Source: Acidobacteriota bacterium
GTDB lineage: Bacteria > Acidobacteriota > UBA6911
DNA length: 64,000 nt
Direction of reading: 5' to 3'
Assembly: GCA_016934295.1 (NCBI GenBank)
Contig: JAFGTD010000152.1
Coordinates: forward strand, 19,624-83,623
Every line of letters begins with the position of its first letter. Position 1 is the first letter of the stretch. The notes under the pieces are model-generated. The model was not told where the DNA came from. It did no database searches and saw only the letters and a list, made by a program, of their open reading frames with translations. This document shows, in pieces, positions 1,709 through 57,765 of this stretch. The position numbers and the translations under genes are program-made.

Positions 1709-2626
1709 TCAATTAACCCAATCATTCAACAGTTTTTCCCAAACAAGTCCTCCCTCGAACTGTTCCGCGCGCCCCTGCTGTCCGAGCCGCCGCGCCAAAT
1801 TCCGAAAACACCTGCTTGAAGAAGCGTTGGGGAAACGGTGTGTTACCAGCGTCTGACTGCGGACAGCCTGCGGCACATGGGCGTCGTGGTCCACATGGCC
1901 GAGATAATCCACTTCCCTGTTTAGAAATCTCTTGACGACTGAATTTATCTGGCAGTAAACCTCGTGGGCGTCATCCGCACTTTCAACTGAATTAATAAGA
2001 ACCTGTATCTTTTTTTTGGGATCTTCGGCCAGAATTATTTTAATCACCGCGTATGCGTCAACGATTGCAGTCGGTTCCGGAGCGCTGACGACAATCACTT
2101 CCTGGGCTGACAACAGAAAGTGAATGACATTTCGCGAAATGCCGGCTGCAGTATCTATAATGAAATAATCCGTGTCGACATCCAGGTTGGAGAAGCATTC
2201 CACCAGGTGATTTCTTTGGGCCGACGTCAGTTCCGACATTCGCTGAAGTCCCGAACTGGCAGGGATGATTCGAATACCCTTCGGACCCTGAATCATTATT
2301 TCAGTCAACGATTTATTCCCGAAAAGCACGTGTCCGAGATGGTATCGAGGAGTCAATCCGAGCAATACGTCGAGATTTGCCAGACCGAAATCCGCATCCA
2401 GCACCACAACTTTATGGCCCAACTCAGAAAGGCTGACGGCCAGATTTGCAACTACGTTTGTCTTTCCGACACCGCCTTTTCCGCTGGTCACAGCCACAAT
2501 CTTGGGGCCTGCAGCGTCGATCTTCAAAATGGATCCCTCGGATGAGGAAAGCCGGGAAGATTGCGATTTCGGACTTTGATGTCCGGTTGCACTGTGATTT
2601 CTATTGAACTCAGGCTTCATAATCAT
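1709..2626 (-). CDS. flhG: MinD/ParA-family ATPase FlhG (FleN), flagellar number regulator
   Basis: Deviant Walker A motif KGGVGKT. It sits immediately downstream of flhF with a 4-nt overlap. Confidence 0.85.
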   Translation of the reverse strand: MIMKPEFNRNHSATGHQSPKSQSSRLSSSEGSILKIDAAGPKIVAVTSGKGGVGKTNVVANLAVSLSELGHKVVVLDADFGLANLDVLLGLTPRYHLGHVLFGNKSLTEIMIQGPKGIRIIPASSGLQRMSELTSAQRNHLVECFSNLDVDTDYFIIDTAAGISRNVIHFLLSAQEVIVVSAPEPTAIVDAYAVIKIILAEDPKKKIQVLINSVESADDAHEVYCQINSVVKRFLNREVDYLGHVDHDAHVPQAVRSQTLVTHRFPNASSSRCFRNLARRLGQQGRAEQFEGGLVWEKLLNDWVN

Positions 2627-3837
2627 TCCTTAAATGCGACGTCGTTTCGGTTAAGGACCAGGTCCAGAATGCATTCTCCCGTTGCCGTATGAAGGTCGTC
2701 GGGCACTCTTTGCCCATCGCTGTAATAAGAGAATGATTTCTGCGTGCGGATAATTTCGTTTAATATCGGCCCGGGAGTCGTCGTTTCATCCAGTTTTGTA
2801 AACAACAGATGATCGGGTCCGCAAATTTCGAAATTATCCACTACGGCGCGGAGGTCCTGTGATTTCGTGGCGACACTCAGGACCAGGTGTCTCTCAATAT
2901 CATTGGATTTTCTTAAAAATTCAGCCAGAGGATGCATTGCGCCAAGATCCCGAGGGCTGCGTCCTGCGGTATCGATAAGGATATAATCACGCTGTTTGTG
3001 TTCTTCAATCGTGTGAACCAGGTCGGGCAACTGGTCGACAAATCGAAAAGGTATGCCCATCAGACCGGCATAGGTACGCAGTTGATCGATGGCTCCAATG
3101 CGGTACCCGTCCGTTGTTACAAGGAGCACCTTCTTTTTCTTCTTCAAAGCCAGATGCGCTGCGAGTTTGGCTATAGATGTTGTTTTGCCGACTCCGGTAG
3201 GGCCTACAAACGCTACGATTCTTTTCTTCGGGATTCCATCCCGATCCGGTATTGCAGGAATCATTGAGAGCGCCGCCCGGGCAACGGATTGAACTAATGC
3301 ACTGCGGCTGCGCCGTTGTCCGGATGTCAGTTCATCCCACGCCATGGACATCAGTTTCTTTGCGAGTGCCGCTTCTACGCCATTGTCGATAAGATTGCGG
3401 CAGAGGCAGCTGGCAACCCTGCCTTTAAAAAGCAGCCCTGCATTTTTTCCCGTTTCCCGCGATGCCTTCCTGTCTGAAGTTTGAAGAACTTGTTCGATAC
3501 TGCGGCGTTTACGGGATGCAACGGAACGTTTTCCCGCAAGTTTTTCTGGAGAGTAGGTTCCGGTATGGACAACGCCCGGCAATGTTTCCAGGGATTCCGC
3601 ATCAGGATGAAACGTTCTGTTTTCAGAATTACTGAATTCATCCTTCTCGGATAAAAAGTCGACGGCTTCGGCATCGTCGCAGGCGGCGACCACTTCAAAC
3701 CCGGAGGAGTGCCCCCAAACACCCGACCTGCAAGGGATTTCCTTCGTGGAGAGCAGAATGGCATCCGAACCCAGATGGGTTTTAATCTCTTTGAATGCTT
3801 CCGCCATGGTTCTGGAATAGAAGGTTTTTATCTTCAT
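2623..3837 (-). CDS. flhF: SRP-type GTPase FlhF, flagellar placement
   Basis: N-terminus MKIKTFYSRTMAEAFKEIKTHLG. The NG domain has GPTGVGKTT, DTAGR and TKLDET motifs. Confidence 0.9.
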   Translation of the reverse strand: MKIKTFYSRTMAEAFKEIKTHLGSDAILLSTKEIPCRSGVWGHSSGFEVVAACDDAEAVDFLSEKDEFSNSENRTFHPDAESLETLPGVVHTGTYSPEKLAGKRSVASRKRRSIEQVLQTSDRKASRETGKNAGLLFKGRVASCLCRNLIDNGVEAALAKKLMSMAWDELTSGQRRSRSALVQSVARAALSMIPAIPDRDGIPKKRIVAFVGPTGVGKTTSIAKLAAHLALKKKKKVLLVTTDGYRIGAIDQLRTYAGLMGIPFRFVDQLPDLVHTIEEHKQRDYILIDTAGRSPRDLGAMHPLAEFLRKSNDIERHLVLSVATKSQDLRAVVDNFEICGPDHLLFTKLDETTTPGPILNEIIRTQKSFSYYSDGQRVPDDLHTATGECILDLVLNRNDVAFKE

Positions 3838-22790: not shown

Positions 22791-24182
22791 TCAAACGGAC
22801 GCATGCGAGTGGGCAGATTTTGCCTGCCTTCCCTGCAGCCCCCTGTCCTGAAGTCCGAATTCATTTAATTTATTTCTCAGGGTTCTCAGGCTAATGCCGA
22901 GACTTTTAGCGGCCCGAGTCCGATTTCCCCCGGTATCTTCCAGGGTTCTGCAGATCAATTGACGCTCCATTTCCCGCATGGTAACTCCGGCGGAAAATCC
23001 CAGTTCGTGGGATTTTGTTTCCGTCTCGGACGCGGAAATCTCCGATTGGGGATTCAACAGAGGCAGATCTTCCACCCGTAGGTTTTCGCCGGGACAAAAG
23101 GCAAGAGCCCGCTGAATCGTATTTTCCAGTTCACGCACGTTGCCCGGCCAGGAATACCGCATCAAACGATCCAGCGCGTCAGAACTTAAAGCGACGGAGT
23201 TCTCTCCCGAATGTTTCCCGTATTTCTTGCAAAAGAAATCCGCAAGCAGGGGAATATCCTTACGTCGTTCCCTCAGAGGCGGGATGGTTAAACGAACCAC
23301 GTTCAACCGATAAAAGAGATCCTGCCTGAAATCGCCGCGGCGCACCAGTTCCTGCAGGTCGCGGTTTGTGGTGGCAATTATGCGGACATTGATCGAAACC
23401 GGAGTGCGTCCGCCGATGCGATCCACTTCTTTTTCCTGCAGAACCCGCAGTAGTTTGGCCTGAAGAATCGACGCCATTTCACCGATTTCATCGAGCAGCA
23501 ATGTTCCTTCGTTTGCAAGCTCGAATTTTCCGGGTTTTGAACTGATGGCCCCGGTGAATGCACCCTTCTCAAAACCGAACAATTCGCTTTCAAGCAGATT
23601 TTCAGGAAGAGCGGCACAATTAACCGCAACGAAATCATTGTTCGACCTGCCGCTCTTTTGATGAAGCATTCGCGCCAGCAATTCCTTGCCCGTTCCGCTT
23701 TCCGCTTCTATCAATATCGTGGCTTCGGTTGCGGCAGCCTGTGCAGCTAGTTCAAGGGTGCGTGAAAAATCCGGATCCTGAGTCAGGATCGTATGTGCCG
23801 TCTTTTCGTTTTTTTGCGGAATGGAATCAAGCGCCCGTCTGACTACACGCTCCAGTGCTTCCGATGAAAAAGGCTTGAGCAGATAATCATAGGCGCCGTG
23901 ACGCATCGCATCCACAGCGTTCTGAATCGTACCGTAGGCGGTCAGGAGAACAACCGGAGTTTGGGGCGAAAGAGATTGAACCTTCTTCAGGAGGTCCAGC
24001 CCGCTCAGTTCGGGCATTCTCATATCCGTAAGAACAAGATGGTAATATTTTTCCTTCAACCTGCACAAAGCCTCCATCACGCTTCCTGCAGTCGTGATGC
24101 CGTACCCTTTGCGCCTGAGCGTTTCTTGAACCGCAATAAGCATTTGCGGTTCGTCGTCAACCACAAGTATTTCTTCATCCAT
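22791..24182 (-). CDS. Sigma54-dependent two-component response regulator (FlrC/FleR-like, NtrC family)
   Basis: REC domain (VVDDEP...LVLTDMRMP), AAA+ sigma54-interaction domain (GESGTGKE...GAFTGA) and a C-terminal Fis-type HTH. The probable start is the ATG at 24182 (MDEEILVV...). That start overlaps the kinase stop in the sequence CATGGATGA. Confidence 0.85.
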   Translation of the reverse strand: MDEEILVVDDEPQMLIAVQETLRRKGYGITTAGSVMEALCRLKEKYYHLVLTDMRMPELSGLDLLKKVQSLSPQTPVVLLTAYGTIQNAVDAMRHGAYDYLLKPFSSEALERVVRRALDSIPQKNEKTAHTILTQDPDFSRTLELAAQAAATEATILIEAESGTGKELLARMLHQKSGRSNNDFVAVNCAALPENLLESELFGFEKGAFTGAISSKPGKFELANEGTLLLDEIGEMASILQAKLLRVLQEKEVDRIGGRTPVSINVRIIATTNRDLQELVRRGDFRQDLFYRLNVVRLTIPPLRERRKDIPLLADFFCKKYGKHSGENSVALSSDALDRLMRYSWPGNVRELENTIQRALAFCPGENLRVEDLPLLNPQSEISASETETKSHELGFSAGVTMREMERQLICRTLEDTGGNRTRAAKSLGISLRTLRNKLNEFGLQDRGLQGRQAKSAHSHASV

Positions 24183-25491
24183 GCATCGATTCCTTTGTAC
24201 TCCGGCTTTTTTCAGGCTCGGAAGGACGTGTTCCGAAGCTGATGATAAATGTAGTGCCGTGATTGATTTCACTGGAAACCCGGATGGTCCCGGAATGCTG
24301 TTCTACAATCCGATGGACCACGGAAAGTCCCAGTCCCGTCCCTTTTTTGTTGGTGGTGAAAAATGGATCGAATATACGATTCAGATTTTCCGGCGGAATG
24401 CCGATGCCTGAATCCTGGATTTTCACTTCCAGCCCCCTCCCGCTATCGTGCTCCTGTTTGATATTTTTAGTCTGAACCAGGAGCGAGCCTTCGGAAGGCA
24501 TGGCGTTCATGGCATTCATAATCAAATTCAGCATCATCTGCTTTATAAGTTCACTGTCGGCGCAAAGAACCGGCTGATCTGCTTTAAGTTGCTTCAGTAT
24601 CCGGACCTTCCGTTGATTCATAATAGGATGGGTAAATGCCAGAACGTCCTGAATGATTCTATGAATATCCACTTCTGCAAACGCCGGGGATAATGGATTG
24701 GCAAAATGAAGCATATTCGAAACTATATTATTTAGCGACCGGCTTCCGATCCGGATGTTCTCGGCCCACCGTTTTAAATCTCCCGACACCTCTTTTTCCA
24801 AAAGTGAAGCAAACAGCTCAACACTTCCCAGGGGATTCCGAATCTCGTGGGCCAGTTCTACTGCCATTTCTCCCATCGCGGAGAGTCTCTCGACCCGTTT
24901 ATTCTGCTCCTGGAGAGCCTTCATTTCGGTAATGTCGCGGATGATATGAAGAGTGCCGACCTGATCGCCGCCTGCATCCGTCAGAGGCGCACCCGAAGTA
25001 GCCAGTATCTTCTGTTTTTTCCCACGTTTGAGCGGGATTTCGACCTCGCGCTTGCTGCCGCTGCGCGCAACGGAAGAAGCGAGATAGGAGCGTACCCCCG
25101 AGTTGAGATAAGGCCGGCGATGTTTCCCTGATTTTGTAAGCACCTCGGCAGCCATTGGATTGCACAGGGTCAAATCACCCCTGTCGTCTAGAACCAATAC
25201 ACCGCATGGGAGTCTTTCGAGAATGTTATGCAAAAAATTCTGAGCTTCTTCCTTTTCCCGCAGGCTTTTTTCCAATTCCAGATTCTTGGCTTCCAGTTCC
25301 TCGGTAAGTTCCTGCGCTTTTGCCTGGAGTTGGCTGTATGCTGTTTCAAGGGAACTTGAAGCTTTCGTAAACATTTCAAAAGCTTCAATAAGTAATCCAG
25401 TTTCCCCCCCTTGCCTGATTCTTTTTTTGGGATCGGACGGAAATATCATGTTTTCAATTTTTTCTCTGACTCTCTCAACCTCCGGCGCCAT
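24175..25491 (-). CDS. Cytoplasmic PAS sensor histidine kinase (FlrB/FleS-like)
   Basis: No TM segment. Coiled coil, PAS domain, HisKA (ELAHEIRNPL) and HATPase_c (GTGLGLSVV). Translationally coupled to the downstream response regulator. Confidence 0.85.
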   Translation of the reverse strand: MAPEVERVREKIENMIFPSDPKKRIRQGGETGLLIEAFEMFTKASSSLETAYSQLQAKAQELTEELEAKNLELEKSLREKEEAQNFLHNILERLPCGVLVLDDRGDLTLCNPMAAEVLTKSGKHRRPYLNSGVRSYLASSVARSGSKREVEIPLKRGKKQKILATSGAPLTDAGGDQVGTLHIIRDITEMKALQEQNKRVERLSAMGEMAVELAHEIRNPLGSVELFASLLEKEVSGDLKRWAENIRIGSRSLNNIVSNMLHFANPLSPAFAEVDIHRIIQDVLAFTHPIMNQRKVRILKQLKADQPVLCADSELIKQMMLNLIMNAMNAMPSEGSLLVQTKNIKQEHDSGRGLEVKIQDSGIGIPPENLNRIFDPFFTTNKKGTGLGLSVVHRIVEQHSGTIRVSSEINHGTTFIISFGTRPSEPEKSRSTKESMHG

Positions 25492-25752
25492 AGGTGCCCT
25501 CCAGGGGATCTTGCCTCAACATTCGACATAGCGCGACCGCTCTCGTTAGGACGATGCCTGCTCGATTAATAGGCAATCCCTATGCCATGTCGCGACCAAA
25601 AATTTTTAAAATATGTATTCCATTTATTTACAATAGGATAGACTTACCGCGCCGACATTATATTCTCCGGACCCTACTTTCATTTCCATCTAAGGAGTCA
25701 ATTTGTTGACATTCGTGCAATCGAAGCTTTGACGTACAATCAGTGAATAAAG

Positions 25753-25801
25753 CAGTGGGCAGTGGGCAGTGGGCAGTGGGCAGTGGGCAGTGGGCAGTGG
25801 G
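25753..25801. repeat. Perfect heptanucleotide microsatellite (CAGTGGG)x7
   Basis: Seven uninterrupted CAGTGGG units, read directly in the sequence. Intergenic, between the kinase and the divergent response regulator. Confidence 0.9.
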
Positions 25802-26045
25802 CGATCCCGATGCCGACTCCGATACCGACACCGGGGAGAAATTTGGACACCCATTATCTAGCAGTAAGCAGTGGGTAGTTGGCAATAAATCGTGTGCAGC
25901 AGGGGCGAACCTTGCATCCGAGGGCAAAATCGGTGTCGGGGTCGGTATCGCTATCGGGATCGAAAGTGGGTAATGTGCAGTGGGCGATCCCGATGCCGAT
26001 TCCGATCCCGACTCCGGTGGGGAGAAATTTGGACACCCATTATCT
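25802..26045. repeat. Two direct copies of a roughly 57-bp unit [CAGTGGG + (CGAYNC)x5 hexamer array + GGGGAGAAATTTGGACACCCATTATCT], with an inverted copy of the hexamer array between them
   Basis: Direct copies at 25802-25859 and 25978-26045. Inverted hexamer array at 25931-25962 (CGGTGTCGGGGTCGGTATCGCTATCGGGATCG). The whole block is bracketed by a 10-bp direct repeat, AGTGAATAAA, at 25742-25751 and 26082-26091. Confidence 0.8.
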
Positions 26046-26213: not shown

Positions 26214-27626
26214 ATGGTACGCAAAAAGGACGTCAGGATCCTTATCGTCGATGATGAAGACTATATGCGGGAAGTTGTCCGACAAGCTCTCGAAGGTGCC
26301 GATTTTGAAGTTGATGAAGCCGCCGACGGTAAAACGGCACTGGCAATGCTTCGTCAATATCCCTACAACGTAATCGTTACCGATATACGACTGCCCGGAC
26401 TGACCGGAGATAAAATCCTCGAAGAAGCTCTTTCACTTTTTTCTGAAACGATTGTCATTGTAATGACCGGCTTTGGAAATATACAGTCCGCCGTAGAAGC
26501 CATGCGTAAAGGCGCCTACGACTACTTACCGAAACCGTTTCAGTTGGACGAACTTGTAGTTCGTGTCGAAAAAGGACTGGAAGAGCAACAACTCAAGTCG
26601 GAGAACCGGATGTTGCGGGGAGAGCTTCAAAGCAAGTATCATTTCTCGAATCTCGTCGGAAACAGTTCGGCGATGCAGAACATCTACAGGCTGATCAGTG
26701 TTGTTGCCTCCAAGAACAGCACGGTGCTTATCGAGGGAGAAACGGGAACCGGCAAAGAATTGATCGCGCGTGCCATTCACTACAACGGCCCCCGCAAAGA
26801 CCAGCCTCTGGTCAGCGTCAATTGCGGAGCGATCCCTTCGAACCTTCTTGAAGACGAGCTCTTCGGCCATGTAAAAGGAGCTTTTACCGGTGCCCATCAG
26901 CACAGAATCGGAAGGTTCGAACAGGCAAACCATGGCACGCTTTTCCTGGACGAAGTGTCCAGCATGCCGATGGATCTCCAGGTAAAATTGCTGCGGGTAC
27001 TTCAGGAACGTGAATTCCAGAGAGTCGGCAGCCCCACAACTGTTAAAGTGGACGTGCGCATCGTTGCCGCTACAAACAGCAATCTTCTTGACGCGGTAGA
27101 AAAGGGCGATTTCCGGGAAGACCTGTACTATCGTTTGAACGTAATACCCATGCATGTCCCGTCACTGAAAAATCGACGCGAGGACATCCCGTTTTTAATC
27201 CAGCATTTCTTAAACAAATACTGCACGGACGAGGATCTTCAACCCAAAAGCGTTTCGAATGAAGCTATGAAGTACCTGATGTCCTACGATTGGCCGGGCA
27301 ACGTCCGCCAGCTGTCGAACTCGATTGAAATGGCGGTCGCGCTCTCGGGAGACAGGGATGTCCTGGATATGGAGGATTTCCCCGTTGTTACAAAGCCGGC
27401 CGACTCCAAGGCATCCTTTCAGGCCATCGATATTCCGGACAACGGCCTCGATTTCAACACCATGATTTCCGACCTTGAAAAACAGCTGATACTCCAAAGT
27501 CTGCAGGTGGCCAGGGGAAATAAAAAGCGGGCGGCCTCCCTTCTCCAGTTGAAAAGGACCACCTTCGTCGAAAAGCTGCGTCGCATGGGAGTGGAATCAT
27601 CTGCGGGCGAATCGGCCGAAATCTAA
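26214..27626 (+). CDS. Sigma54-dependent response regulator (NtrC family); no kinase gene adjacent on this side
   Basis: 470 aa. REC domain with conserved Asp residues, AAA+ domain (GETGTGKE, GAFTGA) and a C-terminal HTH. Confidence 0.85.
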   Translation: MVRKKDVRILIVDDEDYMREVVRQALEGADFEVDEAADGKTALAMLRQYPYNVIVTDIRLPGLTGDKILEEALSLFSETIVIVMTGFGNIQSAVEAMRKGAYDYLPKPFQLDELVVRVEKGLEEQQLKSENRMLRGELQSKYHFSNLVGNSSAMQNIYRLISVVASKNSTVLIEGETGTGKELIARAIHYNGPRKDQPLVSVNCGAIPSNLLEDELFGHVKGAFTGAHQHRIGRFEQANHGTLFLDEVSSMPMDLQVKLLRVLQEREFQRVGSPTTVKVDVRIVAATNSNLLDAVEKGDFREDLYYRLNVIPMHVPSLKNRREDIPFLIQHFLNKYCTDEDLQPKSVSNEAMKYLMSYDWPGNVRQLSNSIEMAVALSGDRDVLDMEDFPVVTKPADSKASFQAIDIPDNGLDFNTMISDLEKQLILQSLQVARGNKKRAASLLQLKRTTFVEKLRRMGVESSAGESAEI

Positions 27627-38574: not shown

Positions 38575-39636
38575 ATGCTCAGTTTTCTAAATCGAAACAA
38601 ACAGGCAATTGGTCTTGACATCGGCTCCAGCGCATTAAAGGAGGCGGAACTCCGTCCTCTGCGCAAAGGCGGGTATGAACTTATCAGTCTTGGAATTGAG
38701 GAAGTTTCTCCGGATTGTATCGTCGACGGTGTCATCATCTCAAAACTTCCGGTATCGGAAGCGATTGACCGTATCTTCACCGGACAGAATATTAAGAATG
38801 AACGCGTTATGACATCCATTTCCGGTCATTCAGTCATCGTTAAAAAAATATCCTTGCCGGTGCAGAGTGAAGCGGAACTGTCGGAATCCATCCATTGGGA
38901 AGCGGAACAATACATACCTTTCGATATATCGGACGTGAATCTGGACTACCAGGTTCTTGGAGAAAATACGGCGACCGGAAACCTGGATATTTTGCTTGTA
39001 GCCGTTAAAAAAGACAAAATAACCGACTTTTCCAGTGTTGTTAAAATGGCCGGGAAAACTCCGGTCCTGGTGGATGTCGACGCATTCGCGCTTCAAAACG
39101 CCTATGAAATAAATTACGAACCGGCCGGCGATGACACAGTCGCACTGCTCGATATAGGCGCAAACACAATGACGATTAACATCGTTTCCGGCACCGAATT
39201 CCTGTTCACACGCGATGTCGGTGTCGGGGGGCATCAATACACGGAATTTTTACAGAAGGAATTCAACATCGACTATGACCAGGCTGAATCCTTGAAACAC
39301 GGCCAGGAAATTGAAAACGTCGATGCAGCCGAAGTAAACCGTGTCATTGAATCCGTTACGGAAATCATCTGCCTCGAAATTCAGAAGACGTATGATTTCT
39401 TCAAGTCTACAACGACCGTGGAACATATTGACCGCATGATCGTTAGCGGAGGCGCCGCGCATACTACCGGGCTGATAGACGCACTAGCCCGGAAGTTTGA
39501 AATCCCGGCCGAAAAATTCAACGCATTCAAACGGATCAAATACGACCCGAAAAAATTTCCATCCTCAACGATAGCGGACCGCGCTGCAGATTTCGCCATC
39601 GCGGTCGGTTTAGCAATCCGAAATCCTGAGGAATAG
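38575..39636 (+). CDS. pilM: Type IV pilus assembly ATPase-like protein PilM
   Basis: Actin-like fold; the N-terminus IGLDIGSSALK. First gene of pilMNOPQ. Confidence 0.9.
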   Translation: MLSFLNRNKQAIGLDIGSSALKEAELRPLRKGGYELISLGIEEVSPDCIVDGVIISKLPVSEAIDRIFTGQNIKNERVMTSISGHSVIVKKISLPVQSEAELSESIHWEAEQYIPFDISDVNLDYQVLGENTATGNLDILLVAVKKDKITDFSSVVKMAGKTPVLVDVDAFALQNAYEINYEPAGDDTVALLDIGANTMTINIVSGTEFLFTRDVGVGGHQYTEFLQKEFNIDYDQAESLKHGQEIENVDAAEVNRVIESVTEIICLEIQKTYDFFKSTTTVEHIDRMIVSGGAAHTTGLIDALARKFEIPAEKFNAFKRIKYDPKKFPSSTIADRAADFAIAVGLAIRNPEE

Positions 39637-39643
39637 AACGGCT

Positions 39644-40213
39644 ATGATTAAAGTAAACCTGCTGAAAGATCCTATCGCCCGTACGCACAGGACTTATATA
39701 AAGCCATCCACGTCCCGAACAGGGCCGCTCCTCATTGTCTTCATTGTTCTGGTCGTGGGATTGATGGGCGCTTGGTATTATGTTGTGAACGAACGGAAGA
39801 ATGAACTGACTGAATATCGCAATGAACTTAAAGCTGAAGAGGCTCGGCTGCAGGCATTAAAGATAAAACTCGAGAAATACGAAGAAGATAAAAAGCAGAT
39901 TCAGAGCCGGATCAGCGTGATTGAACAACTAAAGGAACAACAGACAGGTCCGGTTCTTCTTCTTAACCATGTACTTCACAGCATTCCCAGAAACAGGCTT
40001 CTATGGCTGACCTCGCTGATTCAGAAGGACAGCGCCGTTCAAATCGTCGGTCAAACTCAAAAAATAGAAGCGATCCCGGACTTTATGACCAATCTTGCAG
40101 AAACCGGTTTTTTTCAAAGCGTCGATCTTGAGATGATTGATAGCGTAGGCCAGGATGATGCTTCGAAATTCTCGCTCCTTTGTATGAGCGCACAGTACCA
40201 ACCGGAGGAGTGA
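39644..40213 (+). CDS. pilN: Type IV pilus assembly protein PilN
   Basis: Single TM segment plus a coiled coil; position in the operon. Confidence 0.8.
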   Translation: MIKVNLLKDPIARTHRTYIKPSTSRTGPLLIVFIVLVVGLMGAWYYVVNERKNELTEYRNELKAEEARLQALKIKLEKYEEDKKQIQSRISVIEQLKEQQTGPVLLLNHVLHSIPRNRLLWLTSLIQKDSAVQIVGQTQKIEAIPDFMTNLAETGFFQSVDLEMIDSVGQDDASKFSLLCMSAQYQPEE

Positions 40214-40217
40214 AGAA

Positions 40218-40841
40218 ATGGATCTAAAGGATATCCGTTTAGACAACCTGTCCCGGCCTTTTAAGCACGCACTTTTAGCGGGCCTTATTGTCTGCCTTGC
40301 AGTTGTCTTTTACATATACTTCATGAAGGATCTCATAAGAGAGCGTGATGCGCTTGAGGTCGAGACCGTAAATCTTGAAACCTCCGTGGCCAAAATGACT
40401 GCGGTGGAAAGCCAGCTGAAAGAGTTTGAACAGGAGCTGGCCCATCTTAAGAAATACCTCGCAGACCTTCGCAGCATCCTTCCGGCTCAGAAGGAAACTC
40501 CCACTGTTTTGCGAAGCGTGCAGCATATGGCTGTTTCCAGCAATCTCAAGATCCTGAAATTTTCCCCAAAACCGGTCATTACAAGGGATTTTTATTCCGA
40601 CTGGCCGATCGATATAGAGGTGCAGGGCAACTATAACGGCCTTGGAACCTTTTTCGAAAAAATCGGCGGAGCGACCAGGATCATCGATGTCGGGACCATT
40701 TCCATACAGCATATCGAAGGATCCACGGATCCGAAGTTGACGCTGAAGGCAAGATGTACAGCGACAACATTTGTATATAAAGAAGACCAGCCGGATCCTG
40801 CCGGGAATGATGCTTCGGGTACAAAGGAGAAAACGCCTTGA
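40218..40841 (+). CDS. pilO: Type IV pilus assembly protein PilO
   Basis: Single TM segment, coiled coil and PilO domain; position in the operon. Confidence 0.8.
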   Translation: MDLKDIRLDNLSRPFKHALLAGLIVCLAVVFYIYFMKDLIRERDALEVETVNLETSVAKMTAVESQLKEFEQELAHLKKYLADLRSILPAQKETPTVLRSVQHMAVSSNLKILKFSPKPVITRDFYSDWPIDIEVQGNYNGLGTFFEKIGGATRIIDVGTISIQHIEGSTDPKLTLKARCTATTFVYKEDQPDPAGNDASGTKEKTP

Positions 40842-41410
40842 TCCTTACCTATTTCAACCACCCCTATTCGCGGTATTTCCGAAGGCAAACAGGTTCATGC
40901 CGAAGGTCTTCCGCATTCGGGATTACAGGATGTCTGCTCCTATGCTTCGCGATATCCGTACTTCCGATGAAGCAGGCAACAGCACAGGAAGCAAAACGCG
41001 GCACTGTGACAGGATCGCAACAGCCAGGTTCCGTCAAGAGCCCCCGGTCGAACTATACCGGGATCGCCTACAGCCCCAGCAATCTTCGAGATCCCTTTCT
41101 GAACCCACTCCTTAAAAAACCGGGCAACGAAGGAGATCAGGAAATTGACCGCGGTCTGCCTCCACCGGGAATCGCCGGCACTTTTATAGAGGAGGCGGTA
41201 CTCAAAGGGATCTCCATTAAGGAGGATGGGCGCCTTGCTATCGTCAAAGGATCCGGGAATCGAGCCTATTTTCTCAGGGAAGGAGACAGGCTTTTTGACG
41301 GATACCTTAAGGAAATTTATCGTGACTCTATCAAATTGGTCCGCGAAATAAAAATGAGGTCTGGGAAAATCATCACCCAGGAAGTGACCAAGCGGCTAAG
41401 GACACCATAG
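40838..41410 (+). CDS. pilP: Type IV pilus assembly lipoprotein PilP
   Basis: Hydrophobic N-terminus and a PilP-like C-terminal beta domain. It lies between pilO and pilQ. Confidence 0.7.
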   Translation: MILTYFNHPYSRYFRRQTGSCRRSSAFGITGCLLLCFAISVLPMKQATAQEAKRGTVTGSQQPGSVKSPRSNYTGIAYSPSNLRDPFLNPLLKKPGNEGDQEIDRGLPPPGIAGTFIEEAVLKGISIKEDGRLAIVKGSGNRAYFLREGDRLFDGYLKEIYRDSIKLVREIKMRSGKIITQEVTKRLRTP

Positions 41411-41411
41411 G

Positions 41412-43916
41412 ATGGCGGGTATGAAAATTCGACTCACTGGAAAGAACATTTTCGGATCTAATCAAACGGGGAATACAAAGTACTGTATTCTTCTTTTCAT
41501 TCTAGCGTTTTCCGTTCCGTTGTTTACCGCGGCAAAGGAAGTGTCGGAGGATAAGAAACCTCCCTCCGTTGGATCCCTTAAGGACATTTCGGCTTCACAG
41601 GAGGATGGTAAATTGACGGTAACCATGAAAACGGACCGGTTGATGAAGCCGCAAGCATTCAGGCTGGAGAATCCCTCCCGTCTGGTTGTCGACTTTCAGA
41701 ATACCGTTAATAAAGTTACTTTCATGAAATTGCCGTTAAATGCGCCGTCCGCCAAGCAACTGCGCGTCAGTCAGTTTCAGAGATCTAATCCCCAAATAGC
41801 GCGGGTAGTGTTCGATCTGGAAAAGGATTTTGGAACTCACAACATAACTCAAGACAATACTTCGGTTCAGGTAACGCTCTATCCTGCAAAGCCTGGAACG
41901 AACAAAACCGCTTCCGGCATTGAAAAGAAAGCTGAAAGCCCGGCCGTTACACCGGCCAGCGCTGCCAAAACCACCGAACCGGTCAAGACAGCCGATTCTT
42001 CGGAAAAACCGGAGGCTGCCGGGGTGGATTCCTCTTCCCTGAAGAAAGCTGAAAGCCCGGCCGTTACACCGGTCGGCGCTGCCAAAACCATCGAACCGGT
42101 CAAGACAGCCGTTTCTTCGGAAAAACCGGAGGCTGCCAGGGTGGATTCCTCTTCCCTGAAGAAAGCTGAGAGCCCGGCCGTTACACCGGTCAGCGCTGCC
42201 AAAACCATCGAACCGGTCAAAGCAGCCTCTTCCTCGCAACAATCGGAGATCCCCAAGGTTGCTTTTTCCTCCCTGAAGAAGGCTGAAAGCCCGGACGTTA
42301 CATCGGCCCGTGCTGCCGAAAGCATCGAACCGGTCGAAGCAGCCGTTTCCTCGCAACAATCGGAGATCCCCAAGGTTGCTTTCTCTTCCCGGATGAAAGC
42401 TGAAAGTCCGGCCGTTTCGCCTGTTCCTGCCAATATCGATTCTTCAAAAGAAACCGAATTGAAAAAAAGCGGGCTCAAAATGTCGGACGAAAAAGCCAAA
42501 GAAATTCCGGCTTTGATAGCATCACTGTCTCCAATGTCGCCGCTCAACCAGTCTGCTCCACCTCCAGCACCGCCTGCGGTATCTCAATCATCCCAAATTT
42601 CAAGGTTCTCCGGACAGCTGCTGACTCTGGATTTTGTCGAGCTTCCACTGGTCGACTTTTTCCGGGTTATGTCTGAAGAAGCCGGCATCAATATCGTTCT
42701 CGATCCCAAGGTAAAAGGAGATATCTCCATCAAAGTAGAAAAGCTACCGTGGGATCAGATTTTTGACATGGTTCTGGTCAATTATTCCCTGGATAAGCAG
42801 ATTGAAGGCAACCTGATTCGCATTGCGCACAAATCGACATTACAGGAGGAGGCTAAACAGCAAGAAGCTCTCAAGAAAGCCAAACTGCTTGCCGCAGACC
42901 TGGAAACGCGGGTCAAGCGATTGAATTATGCGAAAGCAGAAGACCTCATGTCATCCCTGGAGGACTTGAAAACGGTTCGCGGTAATGTTGTGCACGATGA
43001 ACGAACGAACTCGCTGGTTATGACCGATATACCGAGTGAGCTGGATAAAATGATGCAATTGATAACCACTCTGGATATACCGCAACCGCAGGTGGAGATC
43101 GAAGCCCGCATCGTTTCCGCCGCACGGGATTTCGCCCGTGAAATCGGCATACAATTCGGTTTTGTCCAGGGTAATCTCGAACGCGTCACCGTCGGCGGGC
43201 CGAATACTTTCGGCACTATCGGCGGCACGAGGCCAAGCGCAACGCCGAACTCAACCTATATCGCCGGGAATCCTGCGACAGGTAGGGGCGCTGCCGAAGA
43301 TGAAGTCGGCGATATCGGATCCGTCAGCACGGGTGGTGCGGGTAATTACAATGTGAATCTGCCCGCAACGAAAGCTTTCGGCGGGCTGGGCATCTCCGTC
43401 GGGAATATCTTCGACACCTTCCTGCTTGACGCGGCGCTTACAGCCGGAGAAACCAAGGGCCTTGCCAAGCTCATTTCGCAACCGAAGGTTACGGCCCAGA
43501 ACAACAGCCCCGCCGTCATTACCCAGGGAACCCGTTTCCCCGTGTTGGTAAATTCAAATAATACGATCACGGTACAGTTTTTCAATGCCGCATTAACGCT
43601 GACGGTAACGCCGCAAATTACCTATGAAGGCAATATCGTTCTTGATTTGAAAGTCGAGAACAACACGGCGGATTGGGGACGGAATGTCGGCGGTGTCCCG
43701 TCCATAAGAATCAGTGAATCCGCAAGCCGGGTATTGGTCAGCGATGGAGGAACAACTGTTATCGGCGGCATCCTCATCGACGATGAATCCAACTCGGGAG
43801 ATAAGGTACCCGGTCTGGGCGACCTGCCTCTTGTCGGAAATCTTTTCCGCCGGTCGTCTGTTTCTCGGTCCACCCAGGAAGTCCTGTTCTTTGTTACACC
43901 CCGAATCGTCAACTAG
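41412..43916 (+). CDS. pilQ: Type IV pilus secretin PilQ with an AMIN domain and an internal tandem-repeat linker
   Basis: Signal peptide, AMIN-like domain (LTVTMKTDRLMKPQAFRLENPSRLVVDF), repeat linker, secretin N domains and the secretin C domain (VPGLGDLPLVGNLFRRSS...VLFFVTPRIV). Confidence 0.9.
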   Translation: MAGMKIRLTGKNIFGSNQTGNTKYCILLFILAFSVPLFTAAKEVSEDKKPPSVGSLKDISASQEDGKLTVTMKTDRLMKPQAFRLENPSRLVVDFQNTVNKVTFMKLPLNAPSAKQLRVSQFQRSNPQIARVVFDLEKDFGTHNITQDNTSVQVTLYPAKPGTNKTASGIEKKAESPAVTPASAAKTTEPVKTADSSEKPEAAGVDSSSLKKAESPAVTPVGAAKTIEPVKTAVSSEKPEAARVDSSSLKKAESPAVTPVSAAKTIEPVKAASSSQQSEIPKVAFSSLKKAESPDVTSARAAESIEPVEAAVSSQQSEIPKVAFSSRMKAESPAVSPVPANIDSSKETELKKSGLKMSDEKAKEIPALIASLSPMSPLNQSAPPPAPPAVSQSSQISRFSGQLLTLDFVELPLVDFFRVMSEEAGINIVLDPKVKGDISIKVEKLPWDQIFDMVLVNYSLDKQIEGNLIRIAHKSTLQEEAKQQEALKKAKLLAADLETRVKRLNYAKAEDLMSSLEDLKTVRGNVVHDERTNSLVMTDIPSELDKMMQLITTLDIPQPQVEIEARIVSAARDFAREIGIQFGFVQGNLERVTVGGPNTFGTIGGTRPSATPNSTYIAGNPATGRGAAEDEVGDIGSVSTGGAGNYNVNLPATKAFGGLGISVGNIFDTFLLDAALTAGETKGLAKLISQPKVTAQNNSPAVITQGTRFPVLVNSNNTITVQFFNAALTLTVTPQITYEGNIVLDLKVENNTADWGRNVGGVPSIRISESASRVLVSDGGTTVIGGILIDDESNSGDKVPGLGDLPLVGNLFRRSSVSRSTQEVLFFVTPRIVN
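41925..42440. repeat. 117-bp (39-aa) tandem repeat, about 4.4 copies, inside pilQ
   Basis: Copies start at 41925, 42042, 42159, 42276 and 42393. They encode KKAESPAVTPxSAAKTxEPVKxAxSSxKPEAAxVDSSSL. Confidence 0.85.
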
Positions 43917-55667: not shown

Positions 55668-56054
55668 AAAATAACATACCCACCTTCTGTAAGCAATCGG
55701 TAATCCTTTCCTGTCATCAACAATAAAATATCAGGCGGCTGGTCCGCATTTCTTACGAAGGATCAGGTAGCTCCGCCTGAACCAGGGCGGCGCGGCAGTA
55801 AACTTATGAGAAATACCGGCCGGAATTCCCTGCCCTCGAAATAATGAATCCTCTTATCCCGAATATTCGCAAGAGTAACTCCATTATATTGGGAAATAAT
55901 AGCTTACCGACTATACTTCCCTGTAGGCACAGGATGTCGTGTATGAATTACTTTCGAGAAAACCGGGTTAAAATGCTAACATAGGACGCGGTTAAGCGTA
56001 TTTTTAATATAGGGATGCACACGCATACAAACGTGCTCCCTGTAGGAGGATTGG

Positions 56055-57422
56055 ATGAAGAAACTTGTTTGTTTGATGGCATCGTTTGTTTGTGCTGCGA
56101 TCCTGTTGTCCGTCAACTTCTCTGTTGAGAGTTCCCAAGCCGCGGACAACTCAAAATTCGGCATCGCCTACAGCGGCAATATCATGGGATATTTCGAGTC
56201 CTGTGGCTGAGCGGAAACAGGCGAGCAGCTCGGCGGGCTGTACAAGAAAGCGTATTTTCTGGATCAATACCGTAAAAACAACGGAAATTTAATCGTCGTC
56301 GATGCAGGCGACCTTCTGAACGAAGATGAGGAAATCCCCGAATCGGTCATGGAATCAGCCAGGATCAAGGCCGATTCAATGGTCCGAATCTTCAATCATA
56401 TCGGCGTAGATGCCGTCAATGTGGGAGAAAGGGATTTAGCCCTTGGAATCCCCTATCTCAAGGAGTTGGAGGGAAAATACAATTTTCCGTTTATATCGGC
56501 GAATTTAACGGATGAAAACGGCTCTCCGATTTTCAAGCGGTATGTCATAAAGAACATCAACGGAAAAAATGTGGGAATCTTCGGACTTATGGGCGATATG
56601 TCCGAAATGGTCGGTAAAGTTGAGAACGCCACCGGTGGAACGGTGAAGGTTCAGGATGTCATAGAAGCGGCTACATCCGTCCTTGCGGAACTTGCCGGCA
56701 AGGTAGATTACACAATCGCGTTGGCCCATCAAAAGACCAACAGAGACTGGGTTCTCGCCAGACGGGCCGAAGGCATCGACGTAATCATAGGCGGCGATGA
56801 TTATTTGAAAACCGAAGATCCCAAAAAGGCAGGAGAAACCCTTATGGTACGGGCAGGTGAAAAAGGCCAGTACCAAGGATTGTTGGAAGTAACCCTCAAT
56901 GGCGGGAAAACAGCCGAGAACTCCCTGATTCCTTTCGGCGATAAAATCGATGACGATCCCGAAGTAAAACAGATGCTTAACGAATACAACGATAAAATTG
57001 TCGCACTCTATGGAGGCGGGTCGGATACCCAAAGCGACGCCACTGCCGCCCCTGTCGCGTTAAGAGCCAGCTCCTGTGAACCCTGCCATACGGAAGTCGT
57101 ACAGAAATGGCAGGCCTCGGATCATGCCAAAGCTTACAGCACACTGGTCGAACGATCCAAGCAGTTCGATCCGTCATGCCTTGTATGTCACACAACACGC
57201 TTCGAGCAGCCCGGAGGGTTCACGATGACCCGGCAGCAGCCGGAATTGATGAATGTTCAGTGCGAATCCTGCCATGGGGATGCAACGAATCACCTGGGCT
57301 CAATGCAACCGATACCGGTGGCGAATCCGCCCATTGAAGTCTGCATCAAATGCCATACCGCCGACCGTTGCCCCGATATGGAAGAAAACTACGACGGCTA
57401 TTGGCAGAAAATAGTCCATTAA
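56055..57422 (+). CDS. Candidate selenoprotein: a secreted fusion of a degenerate 5'-nucleotidase-like metallophosphatase domain to a C-terminal tetraheme cytochrome c, with an in-frame TGA at 56208-56210
   Basis: AGGAGGA Shine-Dalgarno sequence plus ATG at 56055. Signal peptide MKKLVCLMASFVCAAILLSVNFSVESSQA. The frame stays open across a single TGA (…YFESCG-TGA-AETGEQLGGLYKK…) and continues to 57422. 5'-nucleotidase-like similarity spans the TGA (IAYSGNIMG ~ ILHTNDLHG; VVDAGDLLN; FPFISANL). The C-terminus carries four CxxCH motifs (CEPCH, CLVCH, CESCH, CIKCH). The downstream part has no signal peptide of its own. Confidence 0.6.
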
Positions 57423-57692: not shown

Positions 57693-57731
57693 CAAAAAAA
57701 CGCAGGGGCACGGTATGTCGTGCCCCTGCGT
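57693..57731 (-). terminator. Rho-independent terminator after nuoM (a hairpin on both strands)
   Basis: ACGCAGGGGCACG-gtatgt-CGTGCCCCTGCGT. On the minus strand it is followed by TTTTTTTG. Confidence 0.8.
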
Positions 57732-57765
57732 TTGAAATAATCTCCGGCTGTATGAATTCTTCGTT

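What the first reader, a model, noticed from the sequence alone, without database searches (positions are those of the whole stretch)
56055..57422. Periplasmic metallophosphatase-like / tetraheme cytochrome c fusion interrupted by a single in-frame UGA after Cys: candidate selenoprotein
Seen in sequence. A strong Shine-Dalgarno sequence and ATG at 56055 start a classic Sec signal peptide (the ORF reaches the TGA 51 aa from the Met). The same frame stays open for a further 404 aa across one TGA at 56208-56210 (…NIMGYFESCG-UGA-AETGEQLGG…). The TGA sits inside a region that aligns with the first metal-ligand motif of 5'-nucleotidase/UshA-type calcineurin-like phosphoesterases (ILHTNDLHG -> IAYSGNIMG). 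The canonical metal ligands are mostly substituted (GNHE -> GERD). The read-through product would therefore carry an adjacent Cys-Sec pair (C-G-U) in place of a dimetal site. The C-terminal 100 aa carry four CxxCH heme c motifs. Heme c attachment requires Sec export, and the only signal peptide is upstream of the TGA. This argues that the UGA is decoded, presumably as selenocysteine, rather than terminating. A modest hairpin (CAGCUC-GGC-GGGCUG at 56226-56240) lies 15 nt downstream and could be part of a bacterial SECIS. I do not recall a described selenoprotein family with this architecture, though I cannot search. The alternative is a recent nonsense mutation or a sequencing error.
Basis: partly seen in the sequence, partly recalled or inferred. 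Interest (0 to 1): 0.8.

Follow-up and report, generated by a model that had tools for sequence, protein, structure and literature searches.

The report
Known UshA-like tetraheme selenoprotein gene
The in-frame TGA is real and almost certainly encodes selenocysteine, but the gene is an ordinary full-length member of an already catalogued selenoprotein family (NCBIfam NF041198, "UshA-like (seleno)protein") whose biochemical function is still unknown.

Summary
An AGGAGG Shine-Dalgarno sequence and the ATG at 56055 open a signal peptide. A single in-frame TGA lies at 56208-56210 in the context S-C-G-U. The frame then stays open to the TAA at 57420-57422, and the C-terminus carries four CxxCH motifs. 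The read-through product passes the curated equivalog model NF041198 "UshA_like_PCGU" (334.8 bits, cutoff 275). Its cytochrome part alone maps to profile positions 406-513 of 519, so the fusion is the family's normal architecture. The family (CxU motif) is listed in Zhang & Gladyshev 2008 and in reviews from 2022 and 2026. Among the window plus 80 homologous loci from several phyla, the homologous codon is TGA in 59 and TGC/TGT in 22. Sec loci carry a hairpin with a GG-starting loop 18-28 nt after the UGA, with compensatory changes. Cys forms encoding the same peptide have lost it. TGA is a normal stop elsewhere in the window. The canonical phosphatase metal ligands are not conserved across the family, and C-G-U is the invariant site. 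The likely role is a periplasmic redox enzyme wired to four hemes, but the substrate is unknown. Sec machinery cannot be checked within the window. Verdict: real, correctly read, not novel.

The parts
56044..56049 (+). Shine-Dalgarno sequence AGGAGG, 5 nt upstream of the start codon
   Evidence: Read directly from the sequence.
56055..57422 (+). Complete selenoprotein gene: 455 codons including Sec52, then the TAA stop. It is a UshA-like (seleno)protein of family NF041198.
   Evidence: Translation. NF041198 scores 334.8 bits against a cutoff of 275, E = 8.5e-100. The C-terminal part alone maps to profile positions 406-513 of 519.
56055..56141 (+). Predicted Sec-type signal peptide, residues 1 to about 29 (KK, a hydrophobic core, then SQA|A)
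   Evidence: Judged by inspection of the translation; no signal-peptide predictor was available. Homologues have comparable N-termini.
56202..56210 (+). C50-G51-U52 motif. TGA at 56208-56210 is the Sec codon.
   Evidence: C and G are invariant in 80 of 80 aligned family members, and position 52 is U in 58 and C in 22. The codon census is TGA 59, TGC 16, TGT 6. C50 and U52 are the only Cys/Sec residues in the mature N-domain.
56225..56241 (+). Bacterial SECIS-type hairpin: 7-bp stem GCAGCUC/GGGCUGU, apical loop GGC (56232-56234) starting 21 nt after the UGA
   Evidence: Folds. The stem is identical in 10 related Sec loci, but Cys forms encoding the same peptide have lost it. The homologous helix in other clades is 90.5% paired with 4 compensatory pairs. 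Sec and Cys loci differ at p of about 1e-6 to 6e-9.
56151..57014 (+). UshA/5'-nucleotidase-like N-terminal metallophosphatase-fold domain (residues ~33-320) with degenerate metal ligands
   Evidence: PDB sequence hits to 3ivd, YfkN, SoxB and CD73. AF2 core pLDDT is 80-97. Foldseek gives 3ivd E = 1.3e-20, then UshA and CD73. Ligand positions are not conserved.
57060..57419 (+). C-terminal tetraheme c-type cytochrome module (residues ~336-455). The CxxCH motifs are at 57075-57089, 57177-57191, 57261-57275 and 57342-57356.
   Evidence: Pfam Cytochrome_C554 E = 1.1e-15. PDB hits to c554 1bvb and OcwA 6i5b. The four CxxCH motifs plus H357 and H413 are invariant.
56349..57422 (+). The truncated 357-aa ORF that a standard gene caller would report in place of the full gene (a mis-annotation, not a separate gene)
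   Evidence: ORF list. Most database homologues are such N-truncated calls of 355-405 aa.
57698..57733 (.). GC-rich 15-bp palindromic terminator-like hairpin between this gene and the convergent nuoM gene. It was scored on the minus strand and may act in both directions.
   Evidence: Assigning it to this gene is an inference.

Best explanation
The gene at 56055-57422 encodes a full-length Sec-containing member of the known UshA-like (PCGU) selenoprotein family NF041198. During translation, the UGA at 56208 is recoded to selenocysteine by SelB and Sec-tRNA, guided by the SECIS hairpin at 56225-56241. The pre-protein is exported by its N-terminal signal peptide, and four c-type hemes are attached in the periplasm. 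The N-terminal domain keeps the 5'-nucleotidase metallophosphatase fold, but it has lost the dimetal ligand set and the nucleotide-binding C-domain. Its only conserved functional feature is the C50-G51-U52 loop next to the former active site. The most likely mechanism is redox catalysis at a Cys/Sec (selenenylsulfide/selenol) centre, with electrons relayed through the fused tetraheme module to or from periplasmic or membrane electron carriers. This mechanism is inferred, not shown. The substrate is unknown; a sulfur or other chalcogen compound is a reasonable guess, because SoxB is the nearest characterised non-nucleotidase relative. What is shown: family membership, the Sec/Cys alternation, the conserved SECIS, standard genetic code usage, the fold, and the ligand loss. 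What is inferred: actual Se incorporation in this organism, the redox role, heme-to-Sec electron transfer, and the substrate.
For: NF041198 equivalog hit above its cutoff, covering both the N-domain and the cytochrome domain. Literature listing of the UshA-like CxU selenoprotein. 59 TGA against 22 Cys codons at the same column across Acidobacteriota, Thermodesulfobacteriota, Eisenbacteria, Nitrospinota, Gammaproteobacteria and others, with the reading frame conserved on both sides. Full-length database homologues carry PCGC. The SECIS hairpin is conserved at synonymous sites in the window's clade and lost in Cys forms encoding the same peptide. In other clades the helix is 90.5% paired against 21-47% for slid controls, with 4 compensatory pairs. 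Sec against Cys hairpin energy and z-score give p = 1.3e-6 and 6e-9. TGA is an ordinary stop in 13 of 46 long ORFs of the window. The fold is the 5'-nucleotidase N-domain. The canonical ligands are not conserved, while C-G-[U/C] and the heme motifs are invariant. C50 and U52 are the only thiol/selenol residues in the mature N-domain. In one clade, NapC/NirT-type and cytochrome b-fused multiheme cytochromes lie nearby.
Against: No selA, selB, selD or tRNA-Sec is present in the 64-kb window, so Sec competence of this genome is unverified. The hairpin alone is not better than shuffled sequence. There is no Rfam hit. No family-wide operon partner points to a substrate. AF2 places the C-G-U loop with pLDDT below 50, so proximity of Sec to a heme is untested. 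The motif is S-C-G-U, not the consensus P-C-G-U (S in 4 of 80). The Sec-versus-Cys statistics ignore phylogenetic non-independence.
Confidence: 0.85

Rival explanations
1. The TGA is a recent nonsense mutation (a pseudogene) or a sequencing or assembly error in an otherwise Cys-type gene.
For: A single TGC/TGT-to-TGA change would produce it, and Cys forms of the family exist.
Against: 58 independent assemblies from several phyla have TGA at exactly this column. All 10 closest genome loci and L084 are TGA. The downstream SECIS stem is intact and identical to that of Sec relatives, while true Cys forms have lost it. There is no other stop or frameshift in the 403 downstream codons.
Confidence: 0.02
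2. Translation stops at the TGA, and the downstream part is made separately from an internal start such as the ATG at 56349. This would give a 51-residue secreted peptide and a cytoplasmic 357-aa protein.
For: This is what gene callers output. A weak promoter-like match exists at 56158-56185, no more than expected by chance.
Against: The downstream product would lack a signal peptide although it carries four invariant CxxCH motifs that need periplasmic heme attachment. The region between the TGA and the internal ATG is conserved as protein, including the invariant G60-G61 and G85. Cys forms are continuous single proteins.
Confidence: 0.02
3. The protein is a selenoprotein, but it is still a hydrolase. 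Cys50 and Sec52, with residual acidic or His residues, would bind a metal in a remodelled phosphoesterase or SoxB-like thiosulfohydrolase site, and the hemes would serve only as an electron sink for a coupled step or as a structural or docking module.
For: The fold is a metallophosphatase. SoxB is the second-best NCBIfam hit. In the window's own clade some ligand-like residues persist: D86, E125, D127 and H225. D127 is D or E in 80 of 80 and N150 is invariant.
Against: Across the family no complete ligand set is conserved. The motif II Asp is D36/G19/N18, the motif III Asn/His positions are variable, the motif IV His is present in 36 of 80 and the motif V His in 31 of 80. The nucleotide-binding C-domain is absent. 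The SoxB score of 83.8 is far below its cutoff of 550. Sec usually marks redox catalysis (PMC2398784 discussion).
Confidence: 0.1
4. The UGA is read through by a route other than Sec, for example near-cognate Trp or Cys insertion, or a reassigned genetic code.
For: One database homologue (P0013) shows Trp at this position.
Against: That Trp is an annotation artefact, because the DNA has TGA. TGA terminates 13 of 46 long ORFs in the window. A conserved SECIS-type hairpin specific to the TGA forms argues for SelB-dependent decoding.
Confidence: 0.01

Closest known systems
NCBIfam NF041198 'UshA_like_PCGU', UshA-like (seleno)protein, listed as 'COG0737, UshA-like', CxU, in Zhang & Gladyshev 2008 (PMC2398784) and in the 2022 and 2026 reviews (PMC9312934, PMC13188914)
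   Same: Signal peptide, C-G-U about 50 residues from the N-terminus, UshA-like domain and C-terminal tetraheme module. The score is above the equivalog cutoff, and Sec and Cys alternate at the same column.
   Different: Ser replaces Pro before the Cys (S-C-G-U). The protein is shorter than the model (455 aa against 519 profile positions), and profile positions ~273-405 are not covered by the best-scoring stretch or by the C-terminal fragment when scanned alone. It is at most 80% identical to any database protein. No member has a known function.
E. coli UshA / human CD73 / E. coli c4898 (3ivd) 5'-nucleotidases
   Same: The fold of the N-terminal metallophosphatase domain matches over ~320 aligned columns at ~20% identity. 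The positions of motifs I-V and of the GGxA[RK] helix also match.
   Different: The dimetal ligands are largely substituted and are not conserved in the family. The C-terminal nucleotide-binding domain is replaced by a tetraheme cytochrome. A Cys-Gly-Sec loop has been added after motif I. The protein is not expected to be a nucleotidase.
SoxB thiosulfohydrolase (TIGR04486; PDB 2wdc)
   Same: A periplasmic member of the same superfamily that acts on a sulfur substrate and not on a nucleotide. It is the second-best NCBIfam hit.
   Different: The score of 83.8 is far below the cutoff of 550. SoxB keeps a di-Mn site and has no hemes and no Sec.
Cytochrome c554 / NrfA-type multiheme modules (Pfam PF13435; PDB 1bvb; OcwA 6i5b)
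   Same: The C-terminal ~115 residues match the c554 module, with four CxxCH motifs at conserved spacing of 34, 28 and ~25-30 residues.
   Different: Here the module is fused to a phosphatase-fold domain. Only three conserved candidate distal His residues (H357, H413 and a C-terminal His in 68 of 80) serve four hemes.
[quoted passage not shown]
   Same: Periplasmic or extracytoplasmic selenoproteins, curated from genome data and found in similar anaerobic lineages.
   Different: The hits are only weak and below cutoff (16.2 and 34.9 bits). The motifs and architectures differ.

Membership tests
NF041198 UshA-like (seleno)protein (PCGU) | Whole-protein score at or above the curated equivalog cutoff | tested here: met
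   334.8 bits against a cutoff of 275, E = 8.5e-100.
NF041198 UshA-like (seleno)protein (PCGU) | C-G-U/C motif shortly after an N-terminal signal peptide | tested here: met
   S-C-G-U at residues 49-52. C and G are invariant in 80 of 80, with U in 58 and C in 22. The preceding residue is Ser, not the consensus Pro (P in 66 of 80, S in 4 of 80). The signal peptide was judged by inspection only.
NF041198 UshA-like (seleno)protein (PCGU) | C-terminal tetraheme c-type cytochrome domain as part of the family model | tested here: met
   Residues 320-455 alone hit profile positions 406-513 of 519 at E = 4.7e-30. All 80 extracted full-length members, the window included, have four CxxCH motifs, although that locus search was seeded on cytochrome motifs.
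Bacterial selenoprotein (general) | Homologues with Cys aligned to the in-frame UGA, and conservation on both sides of it | tested here: met
   TGA 59, TGC 16 and TGT 6 at the same column. Nine full-length PCGC proteins.
Bacterial selenoprotein (general) | bSECIS stem-loop shortly downstream of the UGA, with G in the apical loop | tested here: met
   7-bp stem with a GGC loop 21 nt after the UGA. The support is comparative. The single-sequence energy is not significant.
Bacterial selenoprotein (general) | selA, selB, selD and tRNA-Sec present in the same genome | not testable with these tools
   None is in the 64-kb window, and the rest of the genome is not available. selB lies next to a Cys-form homologue in a related contig.
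Bacterial selenoprotein (general) | Selenium actually incorporated at the UGA | not testable with these tools
   Needs 75Se labelling or mass spectrometry.
5'-nucleotidase / UshA (COG0737, calcineurin-like phosphoesterase) | Conserved dimetal ligand motifs (DxH, GD, GNH[ED], H, GHxH) | tested here: not met
   In the window the motifs read GNIMG, AGD, GERD, AH and GDDY. Across the family none of the ligand positions is conserved. Pfam Metallophos scores only E = 0.024, below its cutoff.
5'-nucleotidase / UshA (COG0737, calcineurin-like phosphoesterase) | C-terminal 5'-nucleotidase substrate-binding domain | tested here: not met
   No such Pfam hit. Structural matches cover only ~320 columns of the N-domain. 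The C-terminus is a cytochrome.
SoxB thiosulfohydrolase (TIGR04486) | Score at or above the equivalog cutoff | tested here: not met
   83.8 bits against a cutoff of 550.
Cytochrome c554-type multiheme module (PF13435) | Domain score above the gathering threshold, with CxxCH motifs | tested here: met
   58.7 bits against 20.8, residues 341-408. PDB 1bvb E = 1.3e-8.

The most novel reading that the evidence does not exclude
The family could be an unexplored class of periplasmic selenoenzyme. In this reading, a catalytically dead 5'-nucleotidase scaffold presents a Cys-Gly-Sec loop to a covalently fused tetraheme wire, or even donates Cys or Sec as the missing sixth ligand of one heme. That would echo the His/Cys-ligated hemes of SoxAX and TsdA, and the enzyme would carry out sulfur, selenium or another chalcogen redox reaction. 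The evidence does not exclude this. Only three conserved distal-His candidates exist for four hemes, C-G-U is the only invariant feature of the N-domain, and no member has been characterised. The window's gene would then be one more example of the class, not its discovery.
Probability: 0.3. Interest if true: 0.6.

Novelty: new member of a known kind. Interest (0 to 1): 0.25.

Why it matters
For this window the practical point is annotation. The gene should be called as one 455-codon selenoprotein gene (56055-57422) with Sec at codon 52, not as a 357-aa cytochrome lacking a signal peptide. Most public homologues are mis-called in that truncated way, and one is mis-translated with Trp. More broadly, the family is widespread in anaerobic and sediment bacteria and is clearly under selection for Sec, yet it has no known function. 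The data assembled here give a clean starting point for biochemical work: an invariant C-G-U, loss of the phosphatase ligands, a conserved tetraheme module, and natural Sec/Cys pairs with and without the SECIS. None of this is a new discovery.

Tried and rejected
- **Rfam, gathering thresholds:** no RNA family hit in the window, including any SECIS model.
- **Single-sequence folding of the putative SECIS:** not better than shuffles, so I relied on comparative analysis.
- **Search for tRNA-Sec and selB in the window:** none found. By inspection the other ORFs are flagellar, pilus, ribosomal, ETF, Nuo and regulatory genes.
- **Search for other in-frame-TGA genes in the window:** the only extra candidate (24181-24693) is antisense to a histidine kinase gene at 24175-25491 and was rejected.
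- **Gene-neighbourhood clustering over 84 loci:** no family-wide partner. The synteny in the window's clade is housekeeping. Clade-specific neighbours (NapC-type multiheme cytochrome, cytochrome b fusion, DsbA-like, CcsA, DciA) are suggestive at best.
- **AlphaFold2 model:** good for the core fold, but pLDDT is below 50 for the C-G-U loop and 50-70 for the cytochrome modelled without hemes. No coordinates are returned, so the Sec-heme distance could not be assessed.
- **Literature:** no functional characterisation was found. The 2007 Olavius symbiont selenoproteome paper does not mention the family. One literature query failed on syntax.
- **SoxB or nucleotidase identity:** considered and rejected on score and on missing defining features.
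Full report
**Observation.**
- AGGAGG (56044-56049) precedes the ATG at 56055.
- The N-terminus MKKLVCLMASFVCAAILLSVNFSVESSQA|AD has the n/h/c organisation of a Sec signal peptide.
- Codon 52 is TGA (56208-56210) in the context ...YFESCG-U-AETGEQLGG...
- The same frame continues for 403 more sense codons to TAA (57420-57422).
- CxxCH motifs lie at residues 341, 375, 403 and 430.
- A standard ORF list shows only a 51-aa ORF and a 357-aa ORF starting at 56349.

**Identity.** With Cys substituted for the stop, the product hits the curated NCBIfam equivalog NF041198 "UshA_like_PCGU - UshA-like (seleno)protein". The E-value is 8.5e-100 and the score is 334.8 bits against a cutoff of 275.
- SoxB (83.8 bits, cutoff 550) and the 5'-nucleotidase/cyclic phosphodiesterase models follow far below their cutoffs.
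- Pfam sees Cytochrome_C554 (E = 1.1e-15), while Metallophos reaches only E = 0.024.
- Residues 320-455 scanned alone match NF041198 profile positions 406-513 of 519 (E = 4.7e-30). The family model therefore already contains the tetraheme domain, and the "fusion" is the family's normal architecture.
- Distant homologues taken from other phyla reach or approach the same model's cutoff, from 254.8 to 375.3 bits.

**Literature.**
- "COG0737, UshA-like", CxU motif, with 76 Sec sequences and 92 Cys homologues, appears in the GOS selenoproteome analysis (PMC2398784).
- "UshA-like protein, COG0737, CxU, WP_013162925.1" appears in a 2022 review, which cites that paper (PMC9312934).
- "UshA-like protein, NF041198, CxU, WP_263046620.1" appears in a 2026 review (PMC13188914).
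- I found no functional characterisation.

**Is the UGA decoded?** Four lines of evidence say yes.

1. *Sec/Cys alternation.* A protein search returned two kinds of homologue. Full-length proteins of about 450 aa carry PCGC at this position. Many proteins of 355-405 aa begin just after it. I fetched 80 genome loci spanning Acidobacteriota, Thermodesulfobacteriota/Desulfatiglandales, Eisenbacteria, Nitrospinota, Gammaproteobacteria, Binatia, Calditrichota and others, at 26-71% identity, and read the homologous codon in each. Including the window, the counts are TGA 59, TGC 16 and TGT 6. Nearly all loci have a signal-peptide-like N-terminus upstream, and every extracted protein has four CxxCH motifs downstream. 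The one database homologue with Trp at this position (P0013) has TGA in its DNA.

2. *SECIS.* The window has a 7-bp hairpin (G56225-U56241) with a GGC loop starting 21 nt after the UGA. On its own it is not better than shuffled sequence.
   - The same stem (CAGCUC/GGGCUG) is conserved at synonymous sites in the window, in L001-L009 and in L084.
   - Three Cys-form genes encoding the same peptide EQLGG[L/I] have drifted (CAA CUC..CUC; CAG CUU GGG GGA AUU; CAG CUU GGC GGA UUA) and have lost the stem.
   - In other Sec clades the hairpin sits on different codons (L-A-R-R-A-S) but at a similar distance from the UGA, with the loop 25-28 nt downstream. This argues for an RNA-level constraint and not a protein-level one.
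   - On 28 such sequences a 9-bp helix is 90.5% paired, against 21-47% when the 3' partners are slid by 1-3 columns. Four pairs show double-sided changes, for example GC 14 / CG 12.
   - Over all loci, the best hairpin in the 16-37 nt window has a median of -8.6 kcal/mol (z = -2.15) in 60 Sec sequences and -3.1 kcal/mol (z = -0.24) in 25 Cys sequences. Mann-Whitney gives p = 1.3e-6 on energy and 6e-9 on z. These p-values are not corrected for phylogeny.
   - The Desulfatiglandales clade (L010-L014) has only a 4-bp stem at that place.

3. *Genetic code.* TGA ends 13 of 46 long ORFs in the window, so the code is standard. No other credible in-frame-TGA gene exists in the window.

4. *Topology.* Four invariant heme c motifs require export, and the only signal peptide is upstream of the UGA.

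What cannot be checked is the Sec machinery. The window has no tRNA, no SelB homologue and no recognisable selA or selD among its ORFs.

**Anatomy and likely mechanism.** Sequence comparison with solved structures aligns residues ~46-315 to 5'-nucleotidases (3ivd, CD73, UshA), YfkN and SoxB. Residues 339-417 align to cytochrome c554, and residues 348-437 to OcwA (6I5B), a nonaheme electron-transfer cytochrome.
- An AlphaFold2 model has mean pLDDT 74.9 and pTM 0.72. It is confident for residues 60-320 and poor for residues 43-58 and for the cytochrome modelled without hemes.
- Its best PDB matches are 5'-nucleotidase N-domains (3ivd E = 1.3e-20, ~320 columns, ~20% identity). The nucleotide-binding C-domain of those enzymes is absent.
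- In an alignment of 80 family members, none of the canonical ligand positions is conserved. Motif I Asp is D41/N30. Motif II Asp is D36/G19/N18. The motif III Asn position is E33/D12/A12/W11. The motif IV His is present in 36 of 80, and the motif V His in 31 of 80.
- C50, G51, [U/C]52, G60, G61, G85, N150, the four CxxCH motifs, H357, H413, Q402 and E404 are invariant.
- C50 and U52 are the only Cys/Sec residues in the mature N-domain.

I therefore favour a redox site formed by the Cys-Gly-Sec loop on a catalytically degenerate phosphatase scaffold, with the fused tetraheme module relaying electrons. This is an inference. The substrate is unknown.

**Genomic context.** Context gives little help.
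- The gene is monocistronic in the window, lying between a divergent TPR gene and the convergent nuoM gene.
- Synteny with related Acidobacteriota loci involves housekeeping genes (TPR, YceD, PlsX, ETF).
- One Thermodesulfobacteriota clade has NapC/NirT-type and cytochrome-b-fused multiheme cytochromes nearby, which is compatible with a respiratory electron-transfer role.

**Rivals.**
- A nonsense mutation or sequencing error is excluded by the conservation of the TGA and by the intact SECIS.
- Termination followed by internal restart would yield a multiheme apoprotein with no signal peptide.
- Non-Sec read-through is contradicted by normal use of TGA as a stop and by the SECIS.
- A retained hydrolase function with a Cys/Sec-ligated metal remains possible (about 0.1), but the family-wide ligand loss does not favour it.

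**Novelty and score.** The finding is real and was correctly interpreted. It is a new sequence, at most 80% identical to any database protein, of a family that is already curated and listed, including its cytochrome domain. NCBI's PGAP annotation pipeline, which uses this NCBIfam equivalog model, would presumably name the gene correctly. A specialist would not be surprised. The residual interest lies in the unknown biochemistry of the family. Interest 0.25; novelty: new member of a known kind.

Noticed in passing
L081:143-2065 (with the Cys-form homologue at 2118-3476); also the contigs of P0010 and P0012: A selB gene (Sec-specific elongation factor) lies 53 nt upstream, on the same strand, of a Cys-form homologue. 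SelB-domain genes also flank two other Cys-form homologues, and UGSC-family genes, a known selenoprotein family, are nearby.
   Followed up: partly
L084:420 (protein P0013): The database protein shows PCGW, but its DNA has TGA. The source translated a Sec codon as Trp. Most database homologues of 355-405 aa are N-truncated gene calls that start after the TGA.
   Followed up: yes
L052:8746-9882 and L059:11588-12388: A second copy of the same family lies next to the matched gene (tandem paralogues). The L052 neighbour appears N-truncated and may be a Sec form beside a Cys form.
   Followed up: no
L018 (QMSR01000145.1, labelled Thermoplasmata archaeon): The locus has the same gene, SECIS and neighbours as the Thermodesulfobacteriota loci L015-L021. 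It is probably a bacterial contig mis-binned into an archaeal MAG.
   Followed up: no
window 25752-25802, 25807-25833 and 25985-26016: Short perfect or near-perfect tandem repeats (GCAGTGG x7.3; 12-nt and 6-nt units) lie in the ~700-bp intergenic region between a histidine kinase gene (24175-25491, minus strand) and a sigma-54 response regulator gene (26214-27626, plus strand).
   Followed up: no
window 57698-57733: A strong 15-bp GC-rich palindromic terminator lies between the convergent selenoprotein gene and nuoM. It may work in both directions.
   Followed up: no
window 836-24272 and 38575-43916: There is a large flagellar gene cluster and a pilM-to-pilQ-like cluster. The best homologues and the synteny of the target gene point to an Acidobacteriota-like genome. 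Taxonomy was not tested independently.
   Followed up: no
L010-L014 (Desulfatiglandales clade), about 21 nt after the UGA: These Sec forms have only a 4-bp stem at the place where other clades have a 7-9 bp SECIS stem. A Q-to-M substitution breaks one pair. Their functional SECIS may be a different or bulged structure.
   Followed up: no
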